Part shown: positions 27,877 through 58,390 of the stretch, in pieces
Layout of the letters: each line of letters starts with the position of its first letter
Numbering within the stretch: position 1 is the stretch's first letter
DNA from: Candidatus Nomurabacteria bacterium
Lineage (GTDB): Bacteria > Patescibacteriota > Saccharimonadia > Saccharimonadales > CAIOMD01
Assembly: GCA_020631975.1 (NCBI GenBank)
Contig: JACKGO010000002.1
Location: forward strand, 7,218-71,217
Length of the DNA stretch: 64,000 nucleotides
Reading direction: 5' to 3'
Notes under the pieces: model-generated
What the model was told of the DNA's origin: nothing
Databases searched by the model: none
What the model saw: the letters and a program-made list of their open reading frames with translations, nothing else
Made by a program: the position numbers and the translations under genes

Positions 27877-30777
27877 TTACTGCACAATGATGTAGTCAAA
27901 CGTATACGTTTGGCCGGTTATTGGTGCATTAAGTGTTTGTATTATTAGTGTGTTTTGCTGCGTGCTATTAAATATTTGTAGGCTAGCTGTGTTGGCATTT
28001 TTGGCAGATAATATGGCTCTTGGTGCTATATCAAACTGTGCGTTAAAAGCTATTTCGGCTAAGTCGCCTGCTGTGGTGTTGGCACCAGCAATTATAGTTA
28101 TGGTTCCGGCGGTGTCGTTACCTTCTATGGTTACTTGTGGGGCTGGTATGTTGTTTAGGGTGTCTTCTGTACCTGCTGCTGTACCTGCTGTTGCTACTGG
28201 GGCGTTACCAGCTGTTATGATGTGGCCGTTTATAGTAATGTTAGCTACGGTGATGTTCTCTACTGTTAGGTTGCCGTTAAAGATAGCGTTGCCATTAACC
28301 GTAAGGCTTGTTAAGGTTGTGTTGCCAGATACATTCAGGCTACCGCCAATAGACATATTGCCATTAATAGTAGCGCTGCCACTAATGTCTAGGCTGGCAC
28401 CTTGTAAGACGGTACTTAGTGGTGGGCCTGGGTAATAGCCTTGTTCTACATAAACCATAACGGTAGTTTTACCACTTAGCGGATCCCAGGCTTCTAGAGC
28501 TTTACCTATAACGGTACCGGCAGCTTCAGCTTTTTGAGCTTTACCAGTGTCTGGTGAAGTAGTAATGTAGTCACCTGGTTGGATGTTGCTGGAAGCAACA
28601 GATATTTTAACTGGTACACGGCCGTTTAGAGCGACAGGCATTGGGTTGTCTTCTTCTTTTATGTTATGACCAGCCGAAGTGAAGTCCCCATAATTGTTAG
28701 ATACAATACCTATAACATTAGCTTGGTACGAACTACTGGTTTTAACTAGGCGAGTTACCTGGCCTTTTACTTTGTTCCAGTCTACATTACCGTCTGTTTC
28801 GTCGTAGGTATTAACCATTTCAGTGCCTATGGCCACAATGTCGCCATATTCAACACCACTAGTGACCGGGTACATTTCTGCGTAGTCAGCAGCTGGGGCT
28901 GCGTTACAGTCACGAAGTTGATAGGCAGTGTTGGCTGTTGGTGCGGTACCATTTGCTAGGCTAGAACAAACAGCGTTGGTACTAGCAGCATTACCTAGAG
29001 CAACACTTACAAAGCCCCGGGCGGTGGTGGTGTCTACATTTAGCAATGTGTTGCCGGCTGCATTTTGTACTTGGAAGGCAGTTGTTGAGTCAACTGAATT
29101 CTTAAATACACTTGGGGACTGTTCACTGGCGATTTTTAGGTAGACATCGTCGTAGTACCATGTACCCGTTGCACCTGTTCGTTTTGTTAAATTAAAGTTC
29201 ATAAAGTACTTGCCCGCAGGAACAACGACACTGTTAGTTCTGAGCGTGTAACTTGTGCCAGGATCTGTCCAGACATCTGTTGTGAAGCTAGGGTTGGCAA
29301 AATCTTTATCTGTAAACTCAACATAGAAACCACCAGTACCGCCACCACCGGCAGAACGCTTGACCCAACCTTCATAATAAATTACCTGCCCAGGTTGCAC
29401 AGGCACCCTTTTAACGGTACCCACATCTTTAGGTCCAGCCGCACTTATGCTATATGAATTATTGCCAGACCTAGCATTATTGTTGACTATATCACCAGTT
29501 GTCCACCACCCACTGGAACTAGCATTACCCAAACCAGACTCAAAACCAGGATTTTCAATTTCATTATTGTTATCTCTTATAGAATTGTTAATGATATAAC
29601 CTGTGCCTACAGTTGACCCAGTTTGATTATCCATATTGAATAATACATTGCCTGTAGCATTTTGAAGCTGAAATGCTTGGGTCGTATCTGTAATGTTTTG
29701 AAATACAGCCGAGCCGTCCGAGTACACACGAACTACATTTTGCGGAGAACCGCTAACTGTTAAGTAAATACCATTCTTACCTTGAAGCTGTAGAATATCG
29801 GTGTCGGTGGTTGACTGTTCACCTACCCAAACATTAGTACCAATGCCGTAATCGCCAAAGTAAAGTCTTGCTGTTGCTCCACTTGACGTTGGGTCATCGC
29901 CAATAATAACCCTACCGTTTGCTGTGTCCACCTTTAGCATTGCGACACCGGCTGCGTTCTGCACCTGAAAAGCGGTAGGCGAGTTGACTTGGTTTCTAAA
30001 TAAGCTTTCTCCATTGCTATTTATGCTAACTATGGGGTTAGTGGCACCCTGCAAGTAAAGTGGAAACCTGTTTGTGCCAGTAGTCAAATTCTCTACAAAA
30101 ATACCATAATTGTTGGCAATGGTGCCGTTGTTTAGTGGGTTGGCTACACTAATGCCAATAGCGTTTGTAATGGTTCCCGTGCTAGAGTTTCTTATTTGGG
30201 CATTAATACCTGTTGCGTTTGTAATTGTGCCTGTGGTTTGGTTGAATACTCTAAATTGTCCACCATATACATAACCGACTGTACCCGTTCCCTCGTTAGC
30301 TGCTTGTCCATTAACGCCATAGAGTAAGGCATTTGTCATGTTGTTACTGGTTGTTCCAGCCCAAGTACCGACTGCGGCATAAGATTCATTAGAAACTGAA
30401 GAAGGCGTAGCTGTTACAGTGAATAATGAACCATTTTGATTGAAGGTGTTGCTGGTAGCAACAGTATCAACATATAAACCAGAACCTCCAGAGACATTCT
30501 GACTTATCAGATTTTCTAAATAAATAGCTGACCCAGAAGTGTCTATTGTGAATAAACTGTTACTAGCGCTATTCTGCACCCTGAAGGCAGTGCTTGAATC
30601 TACTGTGTTTTTGAAGGTTGTAGCGCCAGTGTTACCTACTGTTAGCACATTGCTAGCGCCTTTTTGTAAGGTGAGTAAGTTACCACTTGCACCTGTTTTG
30701 TTAATGAATATAGAGCTGTTATTGGTAACTATCTGTTTGTGCGCTGGCTGGAGCGAGCTGTACAAAGCCAGTTCCAC
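27877..30777 (-). CDS. Locus B C-terminal ORF (fibre repeats, CBM-like jelly-roll, shared C-terminal module)
   Basis: 966 aa. It contains an NPGFE...W...YYDDVYLKI carbohydrate-binding-module-like segment. The last ~150 aa (NLTVENITVANITINGHIITAGN...TYTFDYIIVQ) are homologous to the C-termini of loci C and D. Confidence 0.6.
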   Translation of the reverse strand: MELALYSSLQPAHKQIVTNNSSIFINKTGASGNLLTLQKGASNVLTVGNTGATTFKNTVDSSTAFRVQNSASNSLFTIDTSGSAIYLENLISQNVSGGSGLYVDTVATSNTFNQNGSLFTVTATPSSVSNESYAAVGTWAGTTSNNMTNALLYGVNGQAANEGTGTVGYVYGGQFRVFNQTTGTITNATGINAQIRNSSTGTITNAIGISVANPLNNGTIANNYGIFVENLTTGTNRFPLYLQGATNPIVSINSNGESLFRNQVNSPTAFQVQNAAGVAMLKVDTANGRVIIGDDPTSSGATARLYFGDYGIGTNVWVGEQSTTDTDILQLQGKNGIYLTVSGSPQNVVRVYSDGSAVFQNITDTTQAFQLQNATGNVLFNMDNQTGSTVGTGYIINNSIRDNNNEIENPGFESGLGNASSSGWWTTGDIVNNNARSGNNSYSISAAGPKDVGTVKRVPVQPGQVIYYEGWVKRSAGGGGTGGFYVEFTDKDFANPSFTTDVWTDPGTSYTLRTNSVVVPAGKYFMNFNLTKRTGATGTWYYDDVYLKIASEQSPSVFKNSVDSTTAFQVQNAAGNTLLNVDTTTARGFVSVALGNAASTNAVCSSLANGTAPTANTAYQLRDCNAAPAADYAEMYPVTSGVEYGDIVAIGTEMVNTYDETDGNVDWNKVKGQVTRLVKTSSSYQANVIGIVSNNYGDFTSAGHNIKEEDNPMPVALNGRVPVKISVASSNIQPGDYITTSPDTGKAQKAEAAGTVIGKALEAWDPLSGKTTVMVYVEQGYYPGPPLSTVLQGASLDISGSATINGNMSIGGSLNVSGNTTLTSLTVNGNAIFNGNLTVENITVANITINGHIITAGNAPVATAGTAAGTEDTLNNIPAPQVTIEGNDTAGTITIIAGANTTAGDLAEIAFNAQFDIAPRAILSAKNANTASLQIFNSTQQNTLIIQTLNAPITGQTYTFDYIIVQ

Positions 30778-33758: not shown

Positions 33759-34500
33759 TAGAACATCTCCCGTAGTATTCAGAACTTCAATTGGAGCATC
33801 TACATAAGTACCACCATTGTATCGCTGGACTTGAAATGCTGGGTTAGCACCTCCGCCAATAGCACCTATTGACCAGTTGGTAGTAGCACCATAGCTAAAT
33901 GATAATCTCTGAGAACCTGTGCTACCGCCAGTTATTACAGCGGCCGCTTCACCACTGCCCGGCCCAACAGTTAATCCACCACCAACAGTAGCATTGTTGG
34001 TAACACTAAGGCCCGTACCTGCTCCGGTTGCACTTAGGCCGCCACTAAAAGTTGAAGCAGTTGCAGTGCTCGCACCACGAGCTGTGACAGTTGCTAGGGT
34101 ATCTGCTTCAGAGAATGAGGTTAGACAAGTGGCGGTGGTACAGACAGTGCCAGTTGTTGGAAGCGTTAAGCTGGTAGCGCCACTAGTAGTAAAGAATAAG
34201 CTGTTACCAGCTGTAGATAACGGAATAATACCAGAGTTATCTTGTAGAGTGTAAGTTCTAGCAGCGGTTAGGTTGGCGTTGGTTATCGTACCGTCAAAAC
34301 GAGCACCAGTACCAAGAGCGGCTGAAGTAATAAGAATACGATCATCGGTTGCCGTAGCATTATCTACAGTTAGACCACGAATGGTAGCTCCGCCAGTGAA
34401 GGAGCTAGCTGTGGTAGTTGTAGCACCACGAGTAGTAACACTTTGAGGGTATCTGCTTCAGCCGCTAGCTTGCCATTAAAGGTTGTCCAATCGGCGGCAG

Positions 34501-37092: not shown

Positions 37093-37370
37093 GTTGGTTT
37101 TTTGGTTTTTTTGTTTTTTTAGTGTTTGTGTGTGTATACCGCTGTTTTGGTTTACAGGTTTTAGTATATATGATTAGCCGCAGCAAGCAAGCCATTTTGT
37201 ATACAAAAATAGAACATGTGAATACACCCAAAAATGTGTAAATAATGTGTACAATATGTTGTGTATACAACATCGTAACAGCTTTAATATATAAAATCTT
37301 ATAGTTAGATAGCAAAATTAATTGTAATATTATTTACAACATTATAATTATACCACGTAGAGTTTTCCAC
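37093..37370 (-). promoter_or_regulatory. Conserved upstream module of fibre locus B
   Basis: T6-GG-T7-G-T7 tracts (37097-37119) next to the ATG, TTGTATACAAAAATAGAACA (37197-37216), TGTACA (37248-37253), CATCGTAACAG and TTTTCCACAG (37362-37371). Confidence 0.5.
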
Positions 37371-38415: not shown

Positions 38416-39033
38416 TTACGGTGTATTGGCTATAAATTGCTTGATCACGTTAAGATCATCATGATACGCCTTATAATCTGCTACAAAATCGGCATAATTA
38501 ACATCATCAAATAGTTCTAAAATCTTATTTGACTTAACCCAGTCTGCAGTTTTATTGCCCAAATAATATGGCAAGCTAGACCATTCGTAGGTATTATAGT
38601 TATCTGGGTTTAAATGAATGTAACGGCTGATGTGTAGTAGCTGCGCATCATCAGTAATTCTTACTGCACGATACCTCTGCTGAAACACTGGCCCGACCCG
38701 TTTGTATTTTTTGTTAAAGTACATGCCGTACGCTGTGGCCAAACTCCGCATAAAATTTGTAATTGCTGTGGGGTCTTCTTTTTGGTAAATGAACAAATGA
38801 AAGTGGTTGCTCATTAAGCAATAAGCCAGTAGATCAACTTCGTTATAAAAATTTGGGTGGTTCGTTCTATTTGCCTTCTTCACTTTTTTTATACCAAGAT
38901 ACCGCTTTAATAGCGCTAAGAAAACAATAAAGTCTTCTTGATCCCTAAATATACGATTTTTATTTACACCCCTGTTATAAAAATGATAGTAACTCTCGGC
39001 TGCGTACTGCTTAATAAGGTTTCTTCCCGGCAT
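38416..39033 (-). CDS. Y1 (HUH) transposase-like protein, IS200/RayT-like
   Basis: 205 aa with the HUH motif NHFHLFIY and a C-terminal catalytic-Tyr helix ISRYIHLNP. Its stop abuts the start of the hydrolase gene (38416/38415). Confidence 0.75.
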   Translation of the reverse strand: MPGRNLIKQYAAESYYHFYNRGVNKNRIFRDQEDFIVFLALLKRYLGIKKVKKANRTNHPNFYNEVDLLAYCLMSNHFHLFIYQKEDPTAITNFMRSLATAYGMYFNKKYKRVGPVFQQRYRAVRITDDAQLLHISRYIHLNPDNYNTYEWSSLPYYLGNKTADWVKSNKILELFDDVNYADFVADYKAYHDDLNVIKQFIANTP

Positions 39034-39744: not shown

Positions 39745-42700
39745 TTATTCCACAATAAAGTACGTAAAGGTGTACGTCTTTCCGGCTTGAGGTGCCTGAT
39801 CTGTATAAATACTAAAGCTGGTGTTGGTGGTTGTAGAGCCGTCGTAATATGCGCCTACTTTGGCACTATCGCGGTTAGCTGGGCTAAATACTACGCGTGG
39901 TTTATTGGTAAAGGCAGTATTAAAGGTAACTTTTGCGAGTTCGTCTGCGGTTGTGTTTGCGCCGGCAACCACTGTAATAGTGCCGGATGTATCGTTACCA
40001 CTAACAGTTACTACGGGGGCTGCGATATTGTTCAGTACGTCTTCTGTGCCAGCTGCTACGCCTGTGCTGACCGTAGGTGTATTACCAGCAGTGATAATTT
40101 TACCGTTTACGGTGATGTTAGCGACGGTGATGTTCTCTACTGTTAGGTTACCAGCTATTACTACATTGTCTGTTACAGTTAGGCTCTTCATGGTTACTGG
40201 GCCGGTGACATTTAGGCTACCTACTATATTTAGGCTACCTTGTATTGTGCCACCGTTAGTGAGGTCTAGAATGTTGTTAGAGGCCGGTTGAATGGAGTTT
40301 TCAAGCGCGGTAAGGCGATTTTGAGCATCGGTTATCATGGCTTGTTGTTCTTGAACGGCGCCGATGAGAGGTGTGACGAGGCCTGCGGTATCTAGTAGCA
40401 GATAACCTTGACTATCTACGCTCACAAATTCAGGTAAAACCGTTTGGACATTCTGAGCTATTAGCCCGAGTTTTTGGGTACCAGGATCTGACTTGTATCT
40501 ATAGTAAGTGGGCTGTAGTTGCATTATCTTAGCAAGATTGCCTGTTGCTGAACTATCTATATATTTCAGCCTTTCATCTGATGTGCATGATAGAGAACCA
40601 TGTATAGTACAATTTGAAGTTTGGGTATAAAGACTCAGGCTCATTCGTTGACCTGGGTCACCAATTGTCGCCCATTGAGCACCGGGGTTTAGAGCTAGTG
40701 CCGAAGTAGAATTATTTACTCCTATATATGCAGCATTAGTACCAGTATTAGTCCAAAGTTGCATGTAATTATAGTTACCATACACTCTAAAACTATTGTT
40801 TTGATATGTTCGAACAACATTACTTTCGATAGAGTATATGCCCGCACCATAATTCTCGTTATACCATCCTGTCTGTCCATAAGACCTAAACCAGTTAGAT
40901 GCATAGACAGCACTATCAGCTGTAATGCTACCATTACTCCAAAAGCCACCATTATATATATTGGCATACTTGTTAGTAATTGACGCGCCATCTTGCCAAA
41001 TCTGCTCGCGACTATGAGTTATGACTGCAGCTGGTGAATACTGTACGAGTACATCACTATTTACATTGTTACCATCATTCTGGACCCCAATGATCAATGC
41101 GCCGTTTTCTGTACTATCACCCCAGTAGTTATAAGCATTATTATCGTTATCCCAATGTATATACCCATAATCAGAACCACCCGTATCTACCCCACCAAAC
41201 AATTCTTCTCTTCCAAAAAAGATATCCTTACCAGCATTGATACCCACACCAGTACTTGTAACGGCAAACGAGCGTTTTTGTGCTTGTATTTTGTCTACAT
41301 AAGCAGTTATCGCACCAGCGGCATCACCCTGGCCTGTACTAATAACTATTCTGCCTTTTAACTTGCCGGCAGGTATTTGGAATGTACCTCTACATTCTGC
41401 CCAGCTCGTTGTGAGGTTGCAATCTTTTACTGTGTATATGGCTGCTCCTGGGACAAAGAACATAGGGTCATTTGCACTATCGTTCAAAAGTATCCCAATG
41501 GAAAGATTTGGTACAACACCACCGGCGGTACCTGAGTAAAAACCATAGGCGGACACTTCTATAAATTCGCCGGGTGATACATCAAATGAATCTAACATAT
41601 CATACCGCTGGTAACCACCCCCACCCGGGTTTGCCGCAAAAGTGGCAGCCGCAGAATATGAACCAACATTGCCATAATGAGTGGCACTTCTGGTAGATGT
41701 TGAGCGGAGTTGCCAAAATGTACCATAGCCAATTGGTACATCATTTGCTGCGTTCCATTGTTCTAGATCACCGTTAACTAAAATGCTTTGTGCGTAGGAA
41801 TACGCATTAGCACCATTAACCTTTAGTAGGTCTGTTGTATTTACCATGCTCAACGCCCCGCCTGACGAAGTCCATACAGCAGCGCTAATATTTTGCCAAG
41901 AGCCGGCATTATTTTTTACCTGCAAGGTACCAGCATTGTCTCTTATGCCATAACCAGCTGAACCACTGGTTGAGCCGAAGTTGAGATAGCTGTTTGAGCT
42001 AGCAAGTATGTTGCCATTTACTGTTAATTTAGCTGCAGGATTAGTGTCGCCAATACCGACATTGCCATCGCTAAGAATTGTCAGTTTGTTACTCCAGCCG
42101 CTTGCTCCTCTAGTAAAGAATGAAAGGTTTGCGTATGCACTGCCATGATTGATATTCTGTGCAGCAATACCCGCCGCTATACTGCCATTGCCGTGAAACG
42201 CTAGCTCTGTCCAGTTATTTGTAGTTCCATCACTGTTCCTGAGAGCCATTTGAGCATTGCTACTAAATGCTCCGGTAGATGTATTGGCCTTTGAAACATC
42301 CAACAAATATTGTGGGTTAGTTCGGCCGATTCCCAAATTACCAGCTGTGGTTAATGTCATGTGTGCCGTTGCTGCACCGTTGGCATGGAAGGCTAAATTA
42401 TACCCGTTGTTCGTGACAAGTCTTGCTGTGGTATCGCCGGTGCTTGCGGCTACACCCAAAATGTTGGTTCCACCTGCTTGCCACATTTGGTTAAAGTCGC
42501 CTGCGGCATTTGTAAAGGTTGCGGGCGCTGTGTAGTTAACAGTTAGCCTATAGCTTGACCCCGTTGTACCGACCGAGACATTACCGTTGTTACCCATAAA
42601 CATAGTGCTTGTAGAAGAATTATTGCGAATGTTGAAGCCACTTGCACCATAGTTAAGATACATTACATTGTCGCTCCACCTTGGCCACAAGAACTGTTCA

Positions 42701-45700
42701 TATGTTCCACCAGAATTTTTAGCCTGCAAGGTAGCTGTGTTTTCAAACTGCAATACACCACCAGTGCCAGTAACAACAAGATTGTTCGCTTTACCTTCAC
42801 CGCTTATCCAATAATTGCTTGAACTTTGTGCACTACTGTTTTGGTTCTGAATATAGTTACCACTTCCACTAGCCGGAGCAAAAGCTGTTGAGTCTAGACC
42901 GTCTAGCAAATCGGCATTAAGGTTTGTAACTTTTGTTGTAGACGATACGGTAAATGGCGAAGTACCAGTTGCAATAGTAGAGGTGAACCTAGTACCTTGT
43001 ATTACGCCAGCAGCCGTTAGGTTGCCAGAACCATCTAAGACTAAGCCGTCTAGTTGGGTGCCCGATGAGTTAACTGTTGAAAAGCGCATTGAATTATCTA
43101 ACAAGCGAATCATTGAGCCACCGCGGTTGGTGTTAATGCGCGGGAAGCCAGTGGTGTTGTACATATTGTTAGCTATACCAACACCAGTGTATGTGTAGCC
43201 AGGTTCGCTTGCCCACAGCATAAGATCTGCTGTGTTAGTTGCACCACCATCACCAATAGAATGAAGCAATAGTTGCGTATCACCATGACCACCATATACT
43301 TCTAACTTGCGGCTAGGTGTAGCAGTGCCTATGCCTACTCTGTTGAGAGCTGCATCTACAAATAGTGTGTTTGTGTCAAAGGTGGCGTTACCAGTTACTG
43401 ATAGAGTTGATGTGATGCTGGTAGCACCATTCAACGTATTAGCACCGGTGCCAGTGCTAAAAGTTCCGCTACCGGTTTGGCTAAAGTTAGAGTTATTAGC
43501 TACAGTTATACCACCGTTGAAGGTACCAAGGCCCGTGAAGGTGCTGGTGCTGGTTACAGCTAGTGTACCGCTAAATGTTGCAGCACCAGCATTTGTAATA
43601 GTTAGTCTTGCGGTATTTGCTGTCTCTAATACAAGTGCTTGTGAATCGTTAGTGCCCAGAGTTGCCGTAGTACCAAAGCTGTTACCGTTTTGGATAAAAG
43701 GTCCGCTTTGGGAAGGCGTATTTATTAAAGTGTAATTAATAGGTGTAGTTTCGTCTGTTACTAATGCCCCACTCCATGCATCACCCCAGCCATCTATACT
43801 GCTATGGCCTGCTATTATTTCTTCTATAACCACCTTGGGGTACTGCCAAACTGTAGAAGTATTGCCTAGCATGATAACTGGATTTGTACCGTTACTAGCT
43901 AGTCTAATTGTAGTGAATGGTGCACTACCGCGTATTTCGGCCGAAGCATTTACCCAGCTTGGAGTAGTGTAAGCATATCCGCTAACTATTGCCTCCCACG
44001 CACCATAGCCCGAATAATCATAGCCCTTAATAGTGAATCTTAACATAGTAGCAGTAAAGCCTTTTGGCGCGGTAAGCACTATAGTACCAGTTTGGTTTGA
44101 AGCAGAAATGTTATACGTATAAACATTTTTATATGTTCTTACGTTGTTTTGAGACCTACTAGTGACGCCGTTTACATCAAGTGCTGTGTTCGGCGTAGTC
44201 GTACCTATACCTACATTACCGTTGTTTTGCACGGTTAGTTTAGTTGTGTCTGCAGTTTGCAGATATAGATTACCTGTACCGCGTGAGTTAAGTATTAGAT
44301 TTTGGTTATTTGTTGAACGAATTTCGTTTTGTAGTGGCGTACTGTCGTATGATGATCCTAGTAGCAAGCCTCTAGCCCTTATATTGGTAGCACCACTAGC
44401 AGTAGTTAGTACCGAAAGGTTACCAGCATCTGTCATGATTTGACCACTAATAACATTTAGGCTATCCCCGCTGGCTATGTCTAGGCGGTTAGCTGCACCA
44501 CGGTATAAGTTAACGTCTGAGCCAAACCGTAGTGGGTACGTAGCGCTGGAATCAGATAATGTTGTTAGGCCTCTTGCTGTAGTGGTGTCGGTGGCTGTAT
44601 CACCCAGTGTGGTGTTGCCGGCTACTGTTAAAATACCGGCTGCAGCTAGTGTGCCGGAAGCATTACTAACAGTAATGGTGCCTGTGCTTGTAGTTAGTAG
44701 GCTATAGTTATTCTGAGAAGAAAGTAGTGCGCTTGGTTGTATACGGAATGCATTGTTTGTACCTGCTCCAGTGATACCAAATAAAGTATTGCCAGTTATG
44801 TCTAGGCTAGCTATTGTAACTTCACTGCCACCAGCAGGCGCAGTAAAAGAAGTGGCGCTGAAGTAGTTCATACTAGAACCTTCAGAAGTTACGGTTACTT
44901 CGCTTGACTGACAAGCTGCCACAGCCTGAGCATCTATATAAGTTACATTAGGTGCACCGCTGTCATTAACCATACGAACATTGCTCCAACAACTTGTGCC
45001 ATTTTGACTGAGCATAGTTATTGAGCCAGATGTTCCCCAGTCTTTGACAACATTCATGACAATTTGGTTAGGAACTCCACTACCGCCACCATTAGACAGT
45101 ACTATTTTTGCTGCACCTCTACCTGCCCCACCACCCGCGCTAGTCGCTATACGGTACCAGTTACCAGCAACGAGAGTACCACCTTGTGTTGTAGTAGTTT
45201 TGGTAACGGCACCAATATCTGAAGCAACTTGTGCAGTCGTACGATATTTAAGAACACCACTGTCATTGGTGACAAAACCAGTAAAGGTTGCGTCATCTGC
45301 AGTTTGGTTTATAGTCGTAGCTCCACTAGTAACGGTTAAGCTGCCAGTAAAGTTAGCTGATGATGATATTGTTTGACCATTAATGAGACCAGAGCTTATG
45401 GTACCTATATTAACTAAGTTGCCACTGCTGTCTATACGATTAGTTCCTGCACCTGCACCAGTATTAATGCCTTGTACGCCATTCACAGATGAGTTAAACA
45501 GAAAGCCAGAGCCACTGGTTTTAGAGAATGAACCGTCGCCTAGGCTTATTGTACCTGTGGTGCCGTTACCTACATATACGGCACCGAATCTACCAGTGCC
45601 TGTAATGTTAAGGTTACCAGTTTGGGCTGTTCCTGGTGTACTGCCTTGCAATTGTACATAGCCACTGCCACCTGTAGCCGGCGCAAAGGCGGTAGAGTCA

Positions 45701-51642: not shown

Positions 51643-53224
51643 TGCTCCAGCAGCAATCTCACTAGAACCAACACTATCTACTGCTAAGGAACTTGCTGTT
51701 AAGCTGTCATTGGCAATTTGGGCATCACCAATACTATCTGCGGTAATGCTGAGATTAATGTTTGACTAGAAGCAGATACCGCTATTTGGCTATTGCCTTG
51801 GATGGTGAGCGCACCACCTAAGCCATTTAAGGCTGTCACGCCACCAGATCCACCAACACTGGCTTGGCTGACCCACGTAAAGCCACCCGTGGTGTTATCG
51901 TAGGTGAGGACATAGCCGTTCGTACCAGCACCAGCTACGTTGGTGCTTTCTAGATCAATTGCTTCTAAGGTACCGTTAGTAACTTCACTGCCCTCTATGG
52001 TGGTACCGAGACTGCTGGTGAGGGTGACACTGCCACCCAATGCCACCGCGCCACCACCTGTTAAGCCAGTGCCAGCCGTCACGGTGACTTGGCCACTACC
52101 AGTCAGACGAGCATTGGCCACCGTACCGCTACTTATGTTGCTACCATTAAGAGCACTTAAGGCTGCACCATTGCCACTGAATGAGGTAGCCGTGACAGCA
52201 CCGGCGCCAGTCACACGGAAGTTACTAATACCGTTGGTTTGCCAGTTAACGTAATCGCCCGCGTAACCACTGCTGGCGTTAATACCAATGTAGGTACCGC
52301 TGGCACTGCCGGCAGCAATTGCACTACCAAACTTGAGGAGTGATGAGGTGGCCGACAAGGCGGGCACACCAGTGAAATCTGCAGCGACACCGCCGGTGAC
52401 ACTACTCGTCAGGGTTGCACTGAAGGTCTTGGCCCCACTGACGGTTTGGGTATTGTTAAGTAACATCACGTTACTGCTAAGACGAGCGTCAGCGACCGTG
52501 CCAGAAGCAATGTTACTACCATTTAAGTTGGTTAGGTTAATACCACTCACAGCTGGTAATTGGCTGCTGGCATTAAGCTGCACCAGTTGGCTGGCACCGT
52601 TAAAGCTATTGCCTTGTAAGGTAACGTTACTACTAAGACGGGCGTCAGCGACCGTGCCACTGGTAACTTGGTTACCGTTAATAGCAATGGAGCTAGAGCC
52701 GGCAGCGGTTAAGCGGCCATCACTATCTACCGTAGCACATGGATGCACTATAGCTACCACTCGTCACAGTCGTACTGGCGAGTTCAGACGCATTCACTGC
52801 TCCAGCAGCAATCTCACTAGAACCAACACTAAAGGAACTTGCTGTTAAGCTGTCATTGGCAATTTGGGCATCACCAATACTATCTGCGGTAATGCTGAGA
52901 TTAATGTTTGGACTAGAAGCAGATACCGCTATTTGGCTATTGCCTTGGATGGTGAGCGCACCACCTAAGCCATTTAAGGCTGTCACGCCACCAGATCCAC
53001 CAACACTGGCTTGGCTGACCCACGTAAAGCCACCCGTGGTGTTTATCGTAGGTGAGGACATAGCCGTTCGTACCAGCACCAGCTACGTTGGTGCTTTCTA
53101 GATCAATTGCTTCTAAGGTACCGTTAGTAACTTCACTGCCCTATGGTGGTACCGAGACTGCTGGTGAGGGTGACACTGCCACCCAATGCCACCGCGCCAC
53201 CACCTGTTAAGCCAGTGCCAGCCG
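49385..53224 (-). repeat. Tandem repeat, 1167-bp unit x ~3.3 copies, inside locus C
   Basis: Identical ORF-track translations recur at +1167/+1166 bp in several frames (49607/50774/51940; 50000/51167/52333; 49878/51045/52211). Copies 1 and 2 look identical. Copy 3 and partial copy 4 carry the indels listed for locus C. Confidence 0.9.
51699..52760 (-). CDS. Locus C repeat-copy ORF fragment
   Basis: 353 aa. Apart from its first ~10 and last ~15 residues it is identical to one 389-aa repeat unit of the giant ORF. It is bounded by indels. Confidence 0.45.
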   Translation of the reverse strand: MVAIVHPCATVDSDGRLTAAGSSSIAINGNQVTSGTVADARLSSNVTLQGNSFNGASQLVQLNASSQLPAVSGINLTNLNGSNIASGTVADARLSSNVMLLNNTQTVSGAKTFSATLTSSVTGGVAADFTGVPALSATSSLLKFGSAIAAGSASGTYIGINASSGYAGDYVNWQTNGISNFRVTGAGAVTATSFSGNGAALSALNGSNISSGTVANARLTGSGQVTVTAGTGLTGGGAVALGGSVTLTSSLGTTIEGSEVTNGTLEAIDLESTNVAGAGTNGYVLTYDNTTGGFTWVSQASVGGSGGVTALNGLGGALTIQGNSQIAVSASSQTLISALPQIVLVMPKLPMTA

Positions 53225-54860
53225 TAATGCTAAGGCTGGCATTTGTCAGACCTACGGTTAAGTTCCCATTCGCCCCACCATCTGTGATGGAGATGTTAGA
53301 ACCAGCCGTCAGGACTCGTTCGTTGGTGAGGCTGCCGTCTAGACCAAGTGTGAGGTAGCTAGCGGCAATTGGTGCACTACCACTGCCACCTGTTCCACAG
53401 GTACTACTAAAGCTGAGGTTACCAGCTGCATCACCGACAATACAGTCACCACTACCACCATAGCCACTCGGGAGCTTAAAGGTCAGGTTACTAGCAATGG
53501 CAGCTGACTGCAGCGTGGTAGTGTTGCTAGAGCCATCGTTGAGCACGAGACTACCTTGTTGAGTCGTTGTACCAACGCTGATGGTTGCACCCTGGACGGT
53601 GAGGGTACCACTAAAGGTTGGGGAGTTGGCGACATTGATGGTCAGGGTGCCATTGGCACCTGTGTCAGCCACGCTAATGTTAGTGCCAGCGGTTAAGACT
53701 CGTTCACCCGTTAAGGTACCGTCTAGGGCGAGGGTGAGGTAGCTGGCACCAACTGGTGCGCCACCACCGCCTGAGCCACAAGTGGCACTGAAAGATAGAC
53801 CACCTGCTCCGTTGCCAACAATACAGTCACCACTACCGCCATAGGCATTTGGGAGGGTGAAGGTCAGATTGCCGGCAGTGGCAGCAGCTTGAATGGTGGT
53901 GGTGTTGGTACTGCCATCGCTTAAGGTGAGGACACCTGCTTGGGAGGTGGTGCCAATAGACACACTGGCACCCTGAAAGACACCAGTGCCCGCCACGGTG
54001 AGGTTACCATTGGCGGCCAGTAGCAGTCGGTCATTGCCACTGGCTTGGAACTGCAGTAAGCTACCTGCTCCGGTTTGGTTGATGCGCAGTGCTGTGTTGG
54101 CTGAATTGACAGTTTGGGTGGCACTAGGTGCCAGTTGGGCCAGTTGGTCAGCCGTAAAGGAGCCCGTGGCTCCTTTGAGGGTTTGGGCTTGTTGGGCAGC
54201 AAAGGCGTATGGTACAGCCGTTACCTTGATGCGAGGGTTCATCTCACCATTCCATGGTGGGGTGGCGGTTTGGGTGGGACCGCCGATGTTCATGCTGAGC
54301 CAGAGTTCTTGGCTCCAGTCTATGGTGCCAGGAAAGGCTGTACCACCAGCGGTGGTATCTGCCAGGCTGACGGTCAGGTAGCCGTTCTTGACCTGGACAC
54401 GGTAGTCATTGCCAGGTGCGGCGCCATTGGTGTCGTAGCGAGTGTCTGTCCAGAGTAGTGTGCCACCAGAGGCTGCATCGTACAGTTTAAACTGGACGTT
54501 GTAGTAGCCATCAGGCACCAGGGCGCCAGTGTTGGTGAGGATACGGGCTTGGAAGTTAATGGTGGTGTTAGCGGCTGCTTTAGCTACGGGTGTGAAGGCG
54601 GGCGTATATAGATATATATACAAGGAGAGGATGGTGACAAGAGCAAGAGCAAGCAAAGCAAAGCGGGAAAGCTTTGTTACGAGAGAAGACCGAGCTGCTG
54701 GATACAAGTTGTTGGATGATGGAGGAAGCACAGCATGCAAAAGAAGCACCTCGTGGATCATCTGCTTTGTTGTCTTGTGGGTAGGTGCGGCCTTACCACG
54801 ACGACGGAGGAGATGACGGGTGCGTGAAAGTATGTGACTAGTGCGGGATAGTCTGTTCAC
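53133..54860 (-). CDS. Locus C N-terminal ORF (distinct basic leader + TM, conserved N-domain)
   Basis: 575 aa with leader MNRLSRTSHILSRTRHLLRRRGK... and TM FALLALALVTILSLYIYLY. From AANTTINFQ onward it is near-identical to locus A. It ends at ...SSLGTTIGQ, where the repeats read SSLGTTIEGSEV. Confidence 0.7.
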   Translation of the reverse strand: MNRLSRTSHILSRTRHLLRRRGKAAPTHKTTKQMIHEVLLLHAVLPPSSNNLYPAARSSLVTKLSRFALLALALVTILSLYIYLYTPAFTPVAKAAANTTINFQARILTNTGALVPDGYYNVQFKLYDAASGGTLLWTDTRYDTNGAAPGNDYRVQVKNGYLTVSLADTTAGGTAFPGTIDWSQELWLSMNIGGPTQTATPPWNGEMNPRIKVTAVPYAFAAQQAQTLKGATGSFTADQLAQLAPSATQTVNSANTALRINQTGAGSLLQFQASGNDRLLLAANGNLTVAGTGVFQGASVSIGTTSQAGVLTLSDGSTNTTTIQAAATAGNLTFTLPNAYGGSGDCIVGNGAGGLSFSATCGSGGGGAPVGASYLTLALDGTLTGERVLTAGTNISVADTGANGTLTINVANSPTFSGTLTVQGATISVGTTTQQGSLVLNDGSSNTTTLQSAAIASNLTFKLPSGYGGSGDCIVGDAAGNLSFSSTCGTGGSGSAPIAASYLTLGLDGSLTNERVLTAGSNISITDGGANGNLTVGLTNASLSITAGTGLTGGGAVALGGSVTLTSSLGTTIGQ

Positions 54861-55240: not shown

Positions 55241-57384
55241 TTACTCTATTACAAAGTATGAATACTTGTATGTTTTGCTGGTTTGCGTGGTGTTGGGTGT
55301 CCCAAAAGTAAAACCATTAGCAGTTGGTGTTGCAAATACTTGTATACTGGCACTGTCTATGTCTTGGCCAGTAATTACTACCTTGGGGGTGTTACCGAAT
55401 GCTTGATTAAACGTAACCTCTGCAAGCGTTCCAGCCGTAGTATTAGCACCAGCAACTATAGTTATGGTACCGGCGGTGTCGTTGCCCTCTATGGTGGTTA
55501 CTTGTGGAGCTGGTATGTTGTTATTGGTATCTTCTACTCCAGCTGCAGTGCCTACAGTAGCTGTTGGGTGTTGCCAGCTGTTATTATGTGGCCGTTGACT
55601 GTTAGGTTAGCTACTGTGACATTTTGGACTGTTAGGTTGCCGGCTATGACAACATCGTCTGTTACGGTTAGGCTACTCATGGTTACTGGGCCAGTGACAT
55701 TTAGGTTGCCTACTACATTGAGGTTACCTTGTATGGTGCCACCGTTGGTAAGATCTAGAATGTTGTTAGAGGCTGGTTGGATAGAGTTTTCTAGGGCGGC
55801 TAAGCGATCTTGAGCGTCAGTTATTTGAGTTTGCTGTTCGCCTATGGCTGCTATGGCATAAATAGGTAGTAAGTCGTAGCGCAGCTTTAGGTAGCCGTTT
55901 TCGTCAGTAGATACTAGTTCAGGTGCTACCTGTAATACTTGCTGAGCTATAAGGCCATATTGTATTTCGTTACCCGTAGCACCAGTATAGTAGTTTTACC
56001 AAGTTGGTTGAACTTATAGGTCACTGCTTGTAAGTTAGCAACTTTATTTAAGATACCACTCATACTAGTAACTTCTTCTTTAAAGCGTTCATCAGATGAA
56101 CATGTACCAGTTAATGCGGCACCATCAAACCGTTTTATACAACCATTGGTACCGCTGGTGCCCACTTTAACATCACCATAAACCCTTAGCTTGTCGGTGC
56201 CGTCTTGTACGCCACCAATACCTATACAGCCAGTACCTACGGTAGTACCAGTACCAAAGCCACCGCCACCAAAGATGACATTGCCTATTGATAGTTGGTT
56301 GGAACCTGTTGTGCTTTGGGCATCTATGTCATAGCCAATTATGATGTTTGTGTCGCCAGCAGTTAAATTATCTCCAGCCTGGTAGCCAATTGCGATATTA
56401 CTTGAACCTGTACTATTAATTAGACTACTTCTCCCGACAGCAGTATTGCCCCAGCCGGTGGTATTGTAATATAAACTATTGCGACCTATAGCAACATTTT
56501 CACTGCCATTAGTGTTAGAGTATAGGCTACTATCACCGACAGCAGTGTTACTAGAATTTTGATTGAAAAATAAGCTGTAAGTACCAACAGCGACATTAGC
56601 ACTTCCCCATTGATTATAGTATAGACTATACAAACCGATTGAAGCATTAGCGGTGCCATTGCTGTTATTGCGTTGACTATTAGAGCCGATGGCTGTGTTT
56701 GATGTGCCACTAGTAACAACACTTAGGCTATTAGCACCTATAGCCGTGTTATTATCGCCTGTTGTGTTTAATCTTAAAGAGTTTTGACCTAAACCAGTAT
56801 TATTGCTGCTTCTACTGGTCGCTCTAAGCTCTAATGCAACATTGTTCGAGCTGTCTTTAATTGCCAGTACACTTGTGTTAAAGCTAACTTCTCTAATACT
56901 GATTATGGTTATACTACCATTATATAAAATACTATTAGGATTGATATAAAAACCTGATGTATTTGTTGTCGTAATAAAAGCGGTCAGAAACAGTTGTATT
57001 GCTATTCATAGTTGCGCTAGATAAACCTAACTGAAAAGAAGCAGTTTGGGCATTAACTACAGTAGAATAGGTAATAGCATTGGAAGTTAATGGTGGTGTT
57101 GGCGGCTGCTAACGCGTTGGGTGTGAAGGCGGGCGTATATAGATATACAGCGGTAAGGAGGCTGAGAGTGAGGGTGAACAAAAGAGAGCTGGCAGTAATG
57201 GTGCGATGGAATATACGGGTTGAGTGGGAATTGGTACTACCAGGATGTAGTACGTATGTACATAATTTTGTAAGTCTATAAAAACAAAAAACACAGGCCC
57301 GCTTATGTGGGATCTGTGCCTAAGATATCTGTTGGTAGGTGCGACGTTGCGGCCTTTTAGCCAATAACGCCATTTGCGCAGCAT
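55241..57384 (-). pseudogene. Fibre locus D: small chimeric paralog (shared 5' cassette + Hep_Hag/YadA-head-like repeats + S74 chaperone motif + shared C-terminal module), frameshifted
   Basis: The leader ORF 57109..57384 matches locus B until an A5 (vs A6) tract at 57280-57284 shifts the frame. The body ORF 55947..56633 (…NTAVGDSSLYSNTNGSENVAIGRNSL…CSSDERFKEE…) breaks at ~55985. The remaining C-terminal module is readable to F-V-I-E-stop at 55241, with another shift near 55570. Confidence 0.6.
55947..56633 (-). CDS. Locus D body ORF fragment
   Basis: 228 aa with repeated N(T/S)A(V/I)G-type head repeats, then GTCSSDERFKEEVTSMSGILNKVANLQAVTYKFN (S74-type motif). Confidence 0.5.
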   Translation of the reverse strand: MYSLYYNQWGSANVAVGTYSLFFNQNSSNTAVGDSSLYSNTNGSENVAIGRNSLYYNTTGWGNTAVGRSSLINSTGSSNIAIGYQAGDNLTAGDTNIIIGYDIDAQSTTGSNQLSIGNVIFGGGGFGTGTTVGTGCIGIGGVQDGTDKLRVYGDVKVGTSGTNGCIKRFDGAALTGTCSSDERFKEEVTSMSGILNKVANLQAVTYKFNQLGKTTILVLRVTKYNMAL

Positions 57385-58321: not shown

Positions 58322-58354
<33 letters not shown>

Positions 58355-58390
58355 TTCCCTCACATTTCCTATTGTCCACATCGGATATAA

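What the first reader, a model, noticed from the sequence alone, without database searches (positions are those of the whole stretch)
39745..40600. Peptidase-S74-type intramolecular chaperone motif is internal and followed by a conserved ~170-aa module shared by loci B, C and D
In phage tail spikes and fibres, the S74 intramolecular chaperone domain (Ser-Asp-x-Arg-x-Lys, here CTSDERLKY at ~40568-40590 and CSSDERFKE at ~56088-56110) is the extreme C-terminus and is autocleaved after trimer folding. Here it is followed by a coiled coil (AVQEQQAMITDAQNRLTALENSIQ) and then a further module. That module runs ...GSLNVTGPVTMKSLTVTDNVVIAGNLTVENITVANITVNGKIITAGN...GTITVVAGANTTA...KTYTFTYFIVE. It is also the C-terminus of locus B (27877-28440), which lacks the S74 motif, and of locus D (55241-55800). 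If S74 cleavage occurs, this module would be released or stay non-covalently attached. If it does not occur, the module may be the cell-envelope anchor or the receptor-binding tip. Either way the architecture departs from the textbook S74 arrangement.
Basis: partly seen in the sequence, partly recalled or inferred. Interest (0 to 1): 0.55.

Follow-up and report, generated by a model that had tools for sequence, protein, structure and literature searches.

The report
Self-cleaving fibre chaperone followed by knob
Three giant surface-fibre genes of a Saccharibacteria-like bacterium end in a shared stalk-and-knob module placed after a phage-type self-cleaving folding domain, which normally is the very end of such fibres, so the probable variable binding tip sits beyond a predicted cut site.

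Summary
Residues 3688-3740 of the 3965-aa ORF (39745-51642, minus strand) are a genuine Peptidase_S74 intramolecular chaperone (Pfam E 3e-12). The Ser/Lys dyad is intact, and profile hits to solved phage and MYRF chaperone domains end inside the 'coiled coil'. That helix is therefore the normal end of S74, not an extra. The extra part is the last 180 aa: a 69-aa repeat stalk plus a 111-aa beta-sandwich knob (AlphaFold pLDDT 97.7). It is shared with locus B (54% identity) and locus D (51-68%). New here: locus B does not lack a chaperone. It carries a phi29-gp12 (Peptidase_G2)-type autochaperone at the same position. Among the closest family representatives, 77 are G2-type, 13 S74-type and 4 other. 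The module is unannotated in Pfam and NCBIfam, has about 3,300 clusters, and the genomic loci found are almost all Saccharibacteria/Patescibacteria. More distant members put the stalk and knob directly on fibres or on small membrane-anchored stalks. A prophage tail-fibre-position ORF ends in the same knob. The distal half of the knob is swapped between otherwise near-identical proteins. Best reading: a Bdellovibrio-MAT-like adhesive fibre with a variable knob beyond a self-cleaving junction. Cleavage and the fate of the 278-aa fragment are untested. New variant of a known kind.

The parts
40582..41079 (-). Phage-tail-fibre-like tip region just upstream of the S74 domain (locus C residues ~3522-3687). 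It contains two Cys that are invariant in the family (C3678, C3686). It ends at Thr3687, the predicted P1 residue of self-cleavage.
   Evidence: PHROG tail-fibre profiles phrog_5481 and phrog_1980 align from residue 8 or 61 of the last 451 aa through the S74 part. Invariant C16 and C24 in alignment A4.
40288..40581 (-). Peptidase_S74 C-terminal intramolecular chaperone domain (residues 3688-3785). Ser3688 (40579-40581) and Lys3693 form the dyad in SDERLK. The terminal helix AVQEQQ...ENSIQ is at 40288-40359.
   Evidence: PF13884 E 3.6e-12. The family profile A4 hits solved chaperone domains: 8jov_1 E 4e-16, S16 gp37 6f45 E 2e-10, MYRF 7dc3 E 3e-6, T5 8hqz and GA-1 3gud. The 8jov chain ends at profile position 117, inside the helix. 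S, D, R and K are invariant.
40081..40287 (-). Linker plus repeat stalk (residues 3786-3854) with roughly six-residue periodicity. It ends in the conserved junction motif NG(H/K)IITAGN.
   Evidence: AlphaFold model pLDDT 81-92 but extended, with no intrachain secondary structure. Weak sub-threshold Bactofilin hits in relatives. This is the DNA segment most conserved between loci C and D, 82-88%.
39748..40080 (-). C-terminal beta-sandwich knob (residues 3855-3965). It carries the near-invariant GNDT(S/A)GT loop and ends ...KTYTFTYFIVE. The stop codon is at 39745-39747.
   Evidence: AlphaFold pLDDT 97.7, pTM 0.88. BFVD matches to two uncultured Caudovirales proteins: E 3e-8 and 3e-7, TM 0.80 and 0.83, 30% identity. 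No significant PDB match. A profile search places the module at the extreme C-terminus in essentially all listed members.
28423..28887 (-). Locus B: phi29-gp12 / Peptidase_G2-like autochaperone domain (residues 631-785, DYAEMY...GRVPVKIS...GYYPGP). It occupies the position that S74 holds in locus C.
   Evidence: Profile A2, whose first row is locus B, hits the phi29 pre-neck appendage autochaperone 3gqh at E 2.3e-6, starting at its first residue DFAEYFE. It also hits 6qz9 and 3suc, and the chaperone domain D4 of tailspike Dpo31 (28nb) at E 1e-5. D and E of DYAE are invariant. PF11962 is sub-threshold in relatives, 22.5 bits against 25.
27880..28392 (-). Locus B copy of the stalk (28204-28392) and knob (27880-28203). 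The stop codon is at 27877-27879.
   Evidence: tblastn 54% identity over 174 aa, E 5e-49. Coordinates.
55244..56105 (-). Locus D copy, read in three frames: S74 start (56010-56105), rest of S74 with helix and stalk (55567-56013), knob (55244-55567). The breaks are single-base homopolymer frameshifts at 55994-55997 and 55566-55568.
   Evidence: tblastn segments at 41%, 68% and 51% identity. Partial PF13884 hit. Homopolymer context. Intact close relatives P0003 and P0021 exist.
51643..54860 (-). Probable 5' continuation of the locus C gene. It includes a 1167-nt tandem repeat array (49371-53225, 98-99% identical copies) and an N-terminal hydrophobic signal or anchor segment (FALLALALVTILSLYIYLY...AKA/AANTT) in ORF 53133-54860.
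   Evidence: Self-megablast. Translations. The reading frame of the giant ORF continues upstream of its listed start.

Best explanation
Loci B, C and D are the 3' ends of three paralogous giant cell-surface fibre genes of a Saccharibacteria-like (CPR) bacterium. They are built like phage tail fibres and like the Bdellovibrio 'mosaic adhesive trimer' (MAT) fibres. Each has an N-terminal signal or anchor, a very long repetitive fibre, and a C-terminal cassette. The cassette has three parts in a fixed order. First comes a self-cleaving intramolecular chaperone: S74-type in C and D, phi29-gp12/G2-type in B. Next is a ~65-aa repeat stalk, and last a ~110-aa beta-sandwich knob. Proposed mechanism: after Sec export the chaperone domain trimerises and nucleates folding of the fibre upstream and of the stalk and knob downstream. 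The Ser3688-Lys3693 dyad then cuts between Thr3687 and Ser3688. In the mature structure the chaperone, stalk and knob would therefore be a separate 278-aa (29 kDa) chain per subunit. I think the knob is the exposed, distal, specificity-determining ligand-binding head. It would be held on the fibre end only non-covalently, as a chaperone 'cap' that can be retained or shed. I think this more likely than the knob being mere disposable folding scaffold. Shown here: the identity of both chaperone domains and conservation of their catalytic residues; the knob fold and its homologues in phage-derived sequences; the C-terminal position throughout the family; the near-obligate coupling with a chaperone domain in the closest relatives; and mosaic variation in the distal half of the knob. 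Inferred: trimeric state, N-proximal and C-distal topology, actual cleavage, the fate of the fragment, and ligand binding.
For: S74 identity and boundaries. G2-type domain in locus B and relatives. Module shared by the three loci.

Family size and position: 3343 representative clusters at E<=1e-3, 353 at E<=1e-30. In essentially all of the 150 best-scoring proteins the match runs to within about 10 residues of the C-terminus, in proteins up to 4006 aa.

Coupling: of the closest representatives with at least 330 aa upstream, 77 are G2-type, 13 S74-type and 4 other. Three of those four carry a third related domain and one a degenerate S74-like domain.

Taxonomy: of 62 genomic loci, most are titled Saccharibacteria or Saccharimonadia, the rest are unnamed MAGs or other Patescibacteria, plus one 'Burkholderiales' bin.

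Distal-head reading. (i) Small ~300-350-aa proteins consist of a cytoplasmic N-terminus, one TM helix, a stalk and the knob (L024, L026, L029, L032, L056). (ii) A prophage tail module (tail assembly protein, minor tail protein, J-like tail protein, integrase) carries a 624-aa ORF in the fibre position that ends in the knob. (iii) BFVD gives matches with TM 0.80-0.83 to uncultured Caudovirales proteins, then weaker matches to H-type-lectin and tail-fibre tips. (iv) Mosaicism: P0001 and P0007 are 87-100% identical through the S74 tail, helix and stalk but 14% identical in the distal half of the knob. Within the window, the DNA identity peaks lie in different segments for C/D and for D/B, and the last ~180 nt are the most divergent.

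Precedents. MAT fibres have a signal peptide, a conserved N-terminal domain and adhesive C-terminal tips, and self-cleavage of Bd3182 at S782 was shown experimentally (PMC10769870). Chaperones have been proposed to act as transient fibre caps (PMC10579305).
Against: No experiment shows cleavage here. In phages and in Bd3182 the cleaved S74 domain dissociates, which would remove the knob from the fibre. There is no cysteine in the 278-aa fragment that could tether it.

The trimeric state and the stalk geometry could not be modelled, because only monomer prediction was available.

The knob has no significant match to any solved lectin or receptor-binding domain (best PDB TM below 0.5, E above 0.05). 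H_lectin Pfam hits are far below threshold. Ligand binding is therefore inferred from context only.

The BFVD 'phage' hits come from metagenomes, which can contain CPR DNA. No match was found in 50,697 deposited phage genomes.

The N-terminal hydrophobic segment is followed by AKA/A, so it could be a cleaved signal peptide rather than an anchor.
Confidence: 0.45

Rival explanations
1. Disposable assembly cassette. The stalk and knob are simply an enlarged leaving group. They would act as a strong C-terminal trimerisation and registration nucleus, comparable to a foldon, that helps three exported 4,000-5,000-aa chains find each other outside the cell. The nucleus is cut off with the chaperone and discarded. 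The true tip would then be the phage-like domain upstream of Ser3688.
For: The module lies entirely downstream of the predicted scissile bond, and the catalytic S, D, R and K residues are invariant. It is coupled to a self-cleaving chaperone in about 96% of close relatives, across two or three unrelated chaperone types. Cleaved S74 domains are released in phages and in Bd3182 (PMC10769870). The region upstream of S74 matches phage fibre tips. There is no covalent tether.
Against: A pure folding nucleus should be uniformly conserved. Instead the distal half of the knob is swapped between near-identical backbones. The same stalk and knob are the permanent C-terminus of fibres without any chaperone domain, of small TM-stalk-knob proteins and of a prophage fibre-position ORF.
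Confidence: 0.22
2. Cell-envelope anchor with MYRF-like release. The knob binds the producer's own wall or S-layer and holds the C-terminus at the cell. Self-cleavage then frees the fibre or its distal end from that anchor.
For: A constant C-terminal module on many different passenger proteins is typical of sorting or anchoring domains. In MYRF an internal S74/ICA domain precedes a membrane anchor, and cleavage releases the N-terminal trimer (PMC3742443). Some bacterial S74 homologues found here end in a hydrophobic helix plus a basic tail after the helix (P0198, P0216, P0234). A possible cleaved signal peptide (AKA/A) would leave the protein without an N-terminal anchor. Locus B gives a very weak T9SS C-terminal-domain hit, 15.8 bits against a cutoff of 40.
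Against: Small family members already have an N-terminal TM helix, which places the knob at the far end of the stalk. The knob occurs on a prophage tail-fibre-position ORF. The allelic mosaicism of the knob does not fit binding to a conserved self structure. MAT fibres are N-proximal and C-distal (PMC10769870). The T9SS hit is far below threshold.
Confidence: 0.13
3. Uncleaved internal trimerisation node. In this context the chaperone domain folds but does not cut, or cuts only under some signal. The protein would then be one continuous fibre with the knob covalently attached.
For: A functional variable knob makes most sense if it stays attached. S74 cleavage can be inhibited by partners in MYRF (title and abstract of PMC12803276, listed). 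phi29 gp12 chaperone release is reported to need ATP, which is absent outside the cell (my recollection of Xiang et al. 2009, not checked here).
Against: The Ser-Asp-x-Arg-x-Lys motif is invariant in all 10 aligned S74-type members, and D and E of DYAE are invariant in 23 G2-type members. Selection is therefore keeping the catalytic residues.
Confidence: 0.15

Closest known systems
Bdellovibrio bacteriovorus MAT (mosaic adhesive trimer) fibres (Caulton et al. 2024, PMC10769870)
   Same: Both are chromosomal, phage-fibre-like cell-surface fibres of a bacterium that lives on other bacteria. Both have a signal peptide, a conserved N-terminal domain, a long fibre and mosaic C-terminal ends. Both occur as paralogous families within one genome. 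S74 domains with an SDxxxK motif are present, and self-cleavage has been shown for Bd3182.
   Different: [quoted passage not shown] Here the two are in tandem, with chaperone, then stalk, then knob. A G2-type chaperone is the commoner partner. The proteins are 3-5 times longer, and the genomic loci found are almost all from Patescibacteria.
Phage tail fibres and tailspikes with a C-terminal S74 intramolecular chaperone (endosialidase K1F, T5 pb1, S16 gp37, GA-1 gp12; PF13884, MEROPS S74)
   Same: Homologous domain (E down to 4e-16 against solved chains). Same Ser/Lys motif, same terminal helix, and a fibre-tip-like region upstream.
   Different: In the phage proteins the chain ends within a few residues of the helix. 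In close short homologues the median tail after the domain is 9 aa. Here 180 further residues follow.
phi29 gp12 pre-neck appendage autochaperone (Peptidase_G2, PF11962; PDB 3gqh, 3suc)
   Same: The locus B-type domain aligns from the first post-cleavage residue (D-F/Y-A-E) and in the GvvS and GRVPVK-like segments. D and E are invariant. It sits C-terminal to a fibre or beta-helix.
   Different: It is below the Pfam threshold and only about the first third aligns confidently. It is internal and followed by the stalk and knob. It is extracellular, so the ATP-dependent release described for phi29 cannot apply as such.
MYRF (myelin regulatory factor) ICA domain
   Same: It is the one well-studied case of an internal S74/ICA domain with functional sequence downstream, where cleavage separates two functional parts. 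The ICA chain 7dc3 is hit at E 3e-6.
   Different: MYRF is eukaryotic and its downstream part is a membrane anchor and luminal region, not a stalk and knob. Cleavage releases a transcription factor.
H-type lectins and distal knobs of phage or pyocin fibres (HPA 2ce6, SLL-2 3wmp, AP22 gp53 4mtm, R-pyocin fibre 6cl6, Pam1 tailspike 7eea)
   Same: All are small C-terminal beta-sandwiches at the end of trimeric fibres. They are the top-ranked, though weak, structural neighbours.
   Different: TM-scores are below 0.5 and E-values above 0.05. Pfam H_lectin scores 13 bits against a cutoff of 24. The GNDTxGT loop and FIVE/Q terminus are specific to this family.

Membership tests
Peptidase_S74 / C-terminal intramolecular chaperone domain (PF13884, MEROPS S74) | Profile match above the curated threshold | tested here: met
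   Locus C scores 44-47 bits against a cutoff of 22, E 3.6e-12, over residues 3688-3740. The broken locus D ORF scores 23.4 bits.
Peptidase_S74 / C-terminal intramolecular chaperone domain (PF13884, MEROPS S74) | Catalytic Ser-Lys dyad in the S-D-x-R-x-K motif at the N-terminal boundary of the domain | tested here: met
   SDERLK in C and SDERFK in D. S, D, R and K are invariant in 10 aligned family members. The motif aligns with SDERHK, the first residues of GA-1 chain 3gud.
Peptidase_S74 / C-terminal intramolecular chaperone domain (PF13884, MEROPS S74) | Homology to solved chaperone domains over the whole domain, including the terminal helix | tested here: met
   8jov_1 E 4e-16, 6f45 E 2e-10, 7dc3 E 3e-6, aligned over profile positions 16-120.
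Peptidase_S74 / C-terminal intramolecular chaperone domain (PF13884, MEROPS S74) | Domain forms the extreme C-terminus of the precursor | tested here: not met
   180 residues follow the terminal helix. Phage profiles and chains end at the helix.
Peptidase_S74 / C-terminal intramolecular chaperone domain (PF13884, MEROPS S74) | Autoproteolysis after trimer folding | not testable with these tools
   Needs expression of wild-type and S3688A constructs.
Peptidase_G2 / phi29 gp12 autochaperone (PF11962), for locus B | Profile match above the curated threshold | tested here: not met
   No hit for locus B itself. Two relatives score 22.5 and 17.3 bits against a cutoff of 25.
Peptidase_G2 / phi29 gp12 autochaperone (PF11962), for locus B | Homology to the solved autochaperone, starting at the post-cleavage Asp | tested here: met
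   Profile A2 against 3gqh gives E 2.3e-6, aligned from residue 1 (DFAEYFE). 28nb gives E 1e-5. A second weak stretch covers the GRVPVK and GQIAVR segment.
Peptidase_G2 / phi29 gp12 autochaperone (PF11962), for locus B | Conserved acidic residues at the cleavage boundary (D-x-A-E) | tested here: met
   D15 and E18 are invariant in 23 sequences. Their catalytic role is taken from my knowledge of MEROPS G2 and was not verified here.
H-type lectin (PF09458), for the knob | Profile match above threshold or clear fold match (TM at least 0.5) | tested here: not met
   13.6 and 12.6 bits against a cutoff of 24, in relatives only. HPA 2ce6 gives TMq 0.39 and E 0.16. SLL-2 appears only with the full-length model, at E 0.064.
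Bactofilin (PF04519; JGI names two fragments 'CcmA'), for the stalk | Profile match above threshold | tested here: not met
   12-17 bits against a cutoff of 27.9. The similarity is probably repeat-composition only.
T9SS C-terminal sorting domain (NF033708) | Profile match above threshold | tested here: not met
   15.8 bits against a cutoff of 40, E 0.009, locus B only.
MAT-like chimeric adhesive fibre (functional class, PMC10769870) | Signal peptide, conserved N-terminal domain, long fibre, variable C-terminal tip, multiple paralogues | tested here: inconclusive
   An N-terminal hydrophobic segment and an N-terminal region conserved between the B and C genes (84% DNA identity) are present. There are three paralogues, and the tip is mosaic. 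Homology of the N-terminal domain to the MAT N-domain, the trimeric state and adhesion were not tested.

The most novel reading that the evidence does not exclude
The self-cleaving chaperone is used as a built-in breakable joint, like the SEA or GAIN autoproteolytic domains of animal surface proteins. The fibre would carry its variable adhesive knob on a non-covalent, pre-cut junction, made with either of two unrelated chaperone types. The epibiont could then stick to a host cell through the knob and later tear free by shedding it. Alternatively it could release soluble trimeric knobs as decoys or signals. This would be a new functional use of phage intramolecular chaperones in bacterial cell-cell attachment.
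Probability: 0.15. Interest if true: 0.8.

Novelty: new variant of a known kind. Interest (0 to 1): 0.58.

Why it matters
How Saccharibacteria and other Patescibacteria recognise and hold their host bacteria is largely unknown beyond type IV pili. This work defines an unannotated C-terminal family of about 3,300 clusters. Nearly all genomic loci found for it are from that group. It has a confidently predicted fold, phage relatives and cassette-like variation in its distal half, which are the hallmarks of a specificity determinant.

The arrangement also breaks the rule seen in phage fibres and in Bdellovibrio MAT fibres, where a self-cleaving chaperone and a binding head are alternative endings. 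Here they are in series, and the arrangement occurs with at least two unrelated chaperone types. That suggests the cut site between fibre and knob is itself functional.

The question can be tested directly with one recombinant construct and a Ser-to-Ala mutant. If cleavage occurs and the knob stays on, it would change how these chaperone domains are understood.

Tried and rejected
(1) Single-sequence phmmer of the last 451 aa against PDB sequences found nothing relevant. Family profiles were needed.

(2) A profile of the knob against PDB sequences gave only chance-level aminopeptidase hits.

(3) The idea that the knob is an H-type lectin was a lead from sequence pattern. The Pfam hits are far below threshold, and Foldseek gives TM about 0.4. 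Rejected as membership and kept only as a distant resemblance.

(4) The stand-alone module hypothesis was rejected. The short 'stand-alone' hits P0009, P0003 and P0019 lie at a contig end or directly follow, or overlap, a large upstream ORF of the same fibre gene.

(5) The word-indexed protein search returned only short proteins (306 aa or less), and just 3 hits for the S74 segment alone. It could not give an unbiased census of S74 architectures. The exhaustive profile search and the genome scan were used instead.

(6) tblastn of the module against 50,697 deposited phage genomes gave no match.

(7) Tandem Repeats Finder missed the 1167-nt repeat because its period limit is 500. Self-megablast found it.

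(8) Literature searches for S74 or intramolecular chaperone together with Saccharibacteria or Patescibacteria found no paper describing this arrangement. The Cell 2023 Tn-seq paper mentions adhesins but no tail-fibre or chaperone domains.

(9) The organism could not be named. The best genomic relative of the module is 72% identical, from a Saccharibacteria MAG.
Full report
CONTEXT. The window is bacterial chromosome of the CPR/Patescibacteria type. It holds an rRNA operon at 57835-64000 on the minus strand. The 23S gene spans 3.9 kb because of an insertion that carries a LAGLIDADG endonuclease ORF. The closest relatives of the proteins studied here come from Saccharibacteria metagenome-assembled genomes. 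The finding lies at the 3' end of a 3965-codon ORF, 39745-51642 on the minus strand. That ORF probably continues upstream to about 54860. On the way it crosses a 1167-nt tandem repeat array at 49371-53225, whose copies are 98-99% identical. It also includes an ORF with an N-terminal hydrophobic signal or anchor segment.

OBSERVATION. CTSDERLKY is residues 3686-3694 (window 40561-40587). Pfam Peptidase_S74 (PF13884) matches residues 3688-3740 and begins exactly at Ser3688, with E 3.6e-12 and 47 bits against a cutoff of 22. It is the only Pfam domain in the whole protein. tblastn of the last 450 aa against the window finds the terminal ~175 aa again at 27880-28392 (locus B, 54% identity, E 5e-49). 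It finds them in three frames at 55244-56105 (locus D, 41%, 68% and 51% identity in the three pieces). Both frame breaks in D are single-base differences in homopolymer runs, A4 at 55994-55997 and C3 at 55566-55568. D may therefore be intact in the organism. Close relatives with an uninterrupted version exist (P0003, P0021).

WHERE S74 ENDS. Phage tail-fibre PHROG families align to residues 8-283 of the last 451 aa and reach the last positions of their own profiles there. Examples are phrog_5481 at 743-1040 of 1043 and phrog_1980 at 247-441 of 449. A profile of the S74 region from ten family members (A4) hits several solved chaperone domains. These are a tail fibre (8jov_1, E 4e-16), phage S16 gp37 (6f45, E 2e-10), the MYRF ICA domain (7dc3, E 3e-6), the T5 L-shaped fibre (8hqz) and GA-1 gp12 (3gud, which starts SDERHK). 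That helix (residues 3762-3785) is therefore the canonical end of the domain. Ser, Asp, Arg and Lys of the motif are invariant in the ten sequences, as are two cysteines 10 and 2 residues before the Ser. The truly additional part is residues 3786-3965, 180 aa.

THE ADDITIONAL MODULE. AlphaFold2 on a 24-sequence alignment gives pLDDT 91.4. The first ~60 residues are confidently extended with no intrachain secondary structure. This is what a strand of an intertwined oligomeric stalk looks like when predicted as a monomer, but that reading is inference. Residues ~62-176 form a beta-sandwich. The knob alone gives pLDDT 97.7 and pTM 0.88. Against the PDB there is no significant match. The best-ranked neighbours are distal domains of phage or pyocin fibres and tailspikes, and H-type lectins, all with TM below 0.5 and E above 0.05. 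Against predicted viral structures two uncultured Caudovirales proteins match strongly (E 3e-8 and 3e-7, TM 0.80 and 0.83, about 30% identity). A tail of weaker matches to H-type-lectin and tail-fibre tips follows. No Pfam, NCBIfam or PHROG model covers the module. Only sub-threshold Bactofilin, H_lectin and T9SS-CTD hits appear.

THE FAMILY. An exhaustive profile search of 1.84 billion representative proteins finds 3343 clusters at E<=1e-3 and 353 at E<=1e-30. In essentially all of the 150 best proteins the match runs to within about 10 residues of the C-terminus. Many of them are 1,000-4,006 aa long (one search gives a median of 0 and a maximum of 9 residues after the knob). A scan of one genome per species returns 62 loci. 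Most are titled Saccharibacteria or Saccharimonadia, and the rest are unnamed MAGs, Peribacteria or Parcubacteria. One 'Burkholderiales' bin may be mis-binned, though I did not check that. Apparent stand-alone copies lie at a contig end or directly follow, or overlap, a large upstream ORF of the same gene.

LOCUS B IS NOT CHAPERONE-LESS. Most family members share the sequence found just upstream of the module in locus B. Its consensus is aDyAE...GvvS...AL.GRVPVKV..enGpI..GDylT.Ss.PG.amKAT. A 23-sequence profile of this region (A2, first row locus B) hits the phi29 pre-neck appendage (gp12) autochaperone 3gqh at E 2.3e-6. The alignment starts at its first residue, DFAEYFE, which is the new N-terminus created by gp12 self-cleavage. 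The profile also hits the full-length gp12 chains and 'chaperon domain D4' of tailspike Dpo31 (28nb, E 1e-5). Pfam Peptidase_G2 is hit just below threshold in two relatives. The D and E of DYAE are invariant. So the same stalk and knob follow either of two unrelated self-cleaving intramolecular chaperones. Local HMMs were run on the 164 closest family proteins, and those with at least 330 aa upstream were counted. That gives 77 G2-type, 13 S74-type and 4 others. Three of the four have a third domain related to the second half of G2 (AFTGSHY...), and one has a degenerate S74-like segment.

MORE DISTANT MEMBERS. Among 66 ORFs in the fetched loci that carry the knob, 18 have S74, 12 have G2 and 36 have neither. 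The last group includes large fibres in which the stalk and knob follow fibre repeats directly. It also includes ~300-350-aa proteins made of a cytoplasmic N-terminus, one transmembrane helix, a stalk and the knob. One IMG/VR contig (L004) carries PHROG-confirmed tail assembly, minor tail and J-like tail proteins plus an integrase. A 624-aa ORF in the fibre position of that contig ends in the knob and has no chaperone domain.

VARIATION. P0001 and P0007 are 87-100% identical through the S74 tail, helix and stalk. They are 73-77% identical in the first half of the knob and 14% in a 30-residue window of its distal half. In the window, C and D are most alike at the DNA level (82-88%) over the stalk. 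D and B are most alike (75-89%) over the junction and first half of the knob. The last ~180 nt are the most divergent in all pairs. This is a recombinational mosaic with a variable distal half of the knob, as seen in receptor-binding proteins.

MECHANISM. Several things are established by these results. Both chaperone domains are identified and keep their catalytic residues. The module has a defined fold and a constant C-terminal position. It is coupled to a chaperone domain in close relatives, and its knob varies by cassette exchange. The rest follows from known behaviour of the families. S74 domains trimerise, nucleate folding of the upstream fibre and cut at the Ser. This has been shown for phage proteins, for MYRF and for the bacterial fibre Bd3182 (PMC10769870, PMC3742443). 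By that rule the chain would be cut between Thr3687 and Ser3688, giving a 278-aa, 29.2-kDa fragment without cysteines. My best reading, at confidence 0.45, has three parts. The fibre is N-proximal and C-distal, as in MAT fibres and in the small TM-stalk-knob relatives. The knob is the exposed, variable binding head. The pre-cut chaperone junction holds it non-covalently, in the manner proposed for chaperone 'caps' (PMC10579305). There are three rivals: a purely disposable folding cassette (0.22), an uncleaved node (0.15) and a self-wall anchor with MYRF-like release (0.13). The mosaicism of the knob and its use without any chaperone domain argue against the first and the last. Conservation of the catalytic residues argues against the second.

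COMPARISON AND NOVELTY. The closest known system is the Bdellovibrio MAT fibre family. There, and in a phage tail-fibre atlas (10.1101/2024.10.28.620165), an S74 domain and a lectin-like or beta-sandwich head are described as alternative C-termini. MYRF is the studied precedent for an internal S74 domain. Three things are new here. The chaperone, stalk and knob are arranged in series. The arrangement occurs with at least two unrelated chaperone types. The knob family itself is unannotated and, among the genomic loci found, almost confined to Patescibacteria. I found no paper describing this. I rate it a new variant of a known kind, with interest 0.58.

LIMITS. No multimer modelling was possible. 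There is no experimental evidence on cleavage or binding. The viral structure matches come from metagenomes that may include CPR DNA. The word-indexed protein search returned only short proteins, so it gave no unbiased census of S74 architectures.

Noticed in passing
window 58108-62041 (23S rRNA, minus strand), ORF 59105-59614: The 23S rRNA match spans 3.9 kb instead of about 2.9 kb. It contains a LAGLIDADG homing-endonuclease ORF (PF00961, E 5e-28), which indicates an intron or insertion as often seen in CPR rRNA genes.
   Followed up: partly
window 49371-53225: A tandem array of about 3.3 copies of a 1167-nt unit (98-99% identical) lies inside the giant fibre gene. The ORF breaks at about 51700 and 52760-53133 fall inside it. 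The gene is therefore probably one reading frame of about 5,000 codons (39745-54860), broken either by assembly or sequencing errors or by real frameshifts.
   Followed up: partly
window 27877-37092: The locus B gene also appears fragmented: ORFs 34501-37092, 32931-33758 and 27877-30777 on the minus strand, with long antisense ORFs in between. Its N-terminal part is 84% identical in DNA to that of the locus C gene (35499-36856 against 53264-54618).
   Followed up: partly
window 36787-37209 and 57080-57500: The 5' leader and start regions of the locus B gene and the locus D gene are 98% identical over 423 nt, including the peptide MLRKWRYWLKGRNVAPTNRYLRHRSHISGPVFFVF. This suggests a recent duplication or gene conversion, or a shared regulatory cassette.
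   Followed up: no
window 55566-55568 and 55994-55997: Both frameshifts that break locus D are one-base length differences in homopolymer runs (CCC and AAAA). Similar ORF breaks occur in related metagenomic contigs (L002 at 9848/9850, L003 at 2502-2530). The cause could be systematic sequencing error or slippage-based phase variation.
   Followed up: partly
window 37408-39033: Immediately downstream of locus C lie an IS200-like Y1 transposase (38416-39033, PF01797 E 3e-9) and a Beta-lactamase2-family protein with an N-terminal membrane segment (37408-38415, PF13354 E 3e-33). A Beta-lactamase2 gene also lies about 8 kb from the module gene in L003.
   Followed up: no
proteins P0198, P0216, P0234 and P0188, P0199, P0204, P0228: Some short bacterial S74 homologues continue after the terminal helix. 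Some continue into a hydrophobic helix plus a basic tail, a possible membrane or sorting anchor that would give a MYRF-like layout in bacteria. Others continue into Pro/Ser/Thr-rich tails of about 110-120 aa.
   Followed up: no
proteins P0043, P0077, P0135 and P0144: A third domain type lies upstream of the stalk and knob (NAFTGSHY...GNGD.WIADNGSGN..IGDPLISS..GHAMRD). P0144 instead has a degenerate S74-like segment, SSQAYKHN in place of SDxRxK. Neither was characterised.
   Followed up: no
loci L024, L026, L029, L032, L056 (ORFs ending at the match): A family of small Saccharibacteria and Parcubacteria proteins of about 300-350 aa. Each has a cytoplasmic N-terminus, one TM helix, a repeat stalk and the same knob, like 'mini-spikes' on the membrane.
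   Followed up: partly
window 40585-40587 and 40609-40611 (Cys3686, Cys3678): Two cysteines 2 and 10 residues before the catalytic Ser are invariant in all ten S74-type family members. The cleaved-off fragment has none. They might form a disulfide that stabilises the new C-terminus.
   Followed up: no
proteins P0009, P0011: JGI names two fragments of this family 'cytoskeletal protein CcmA (bactofilin family)'. The Bactofilin Pfam score is only 12-17 bits against a cutoff of 27.9, so the name is probably an artefact of the repeat stalk.
   Followed up: yes
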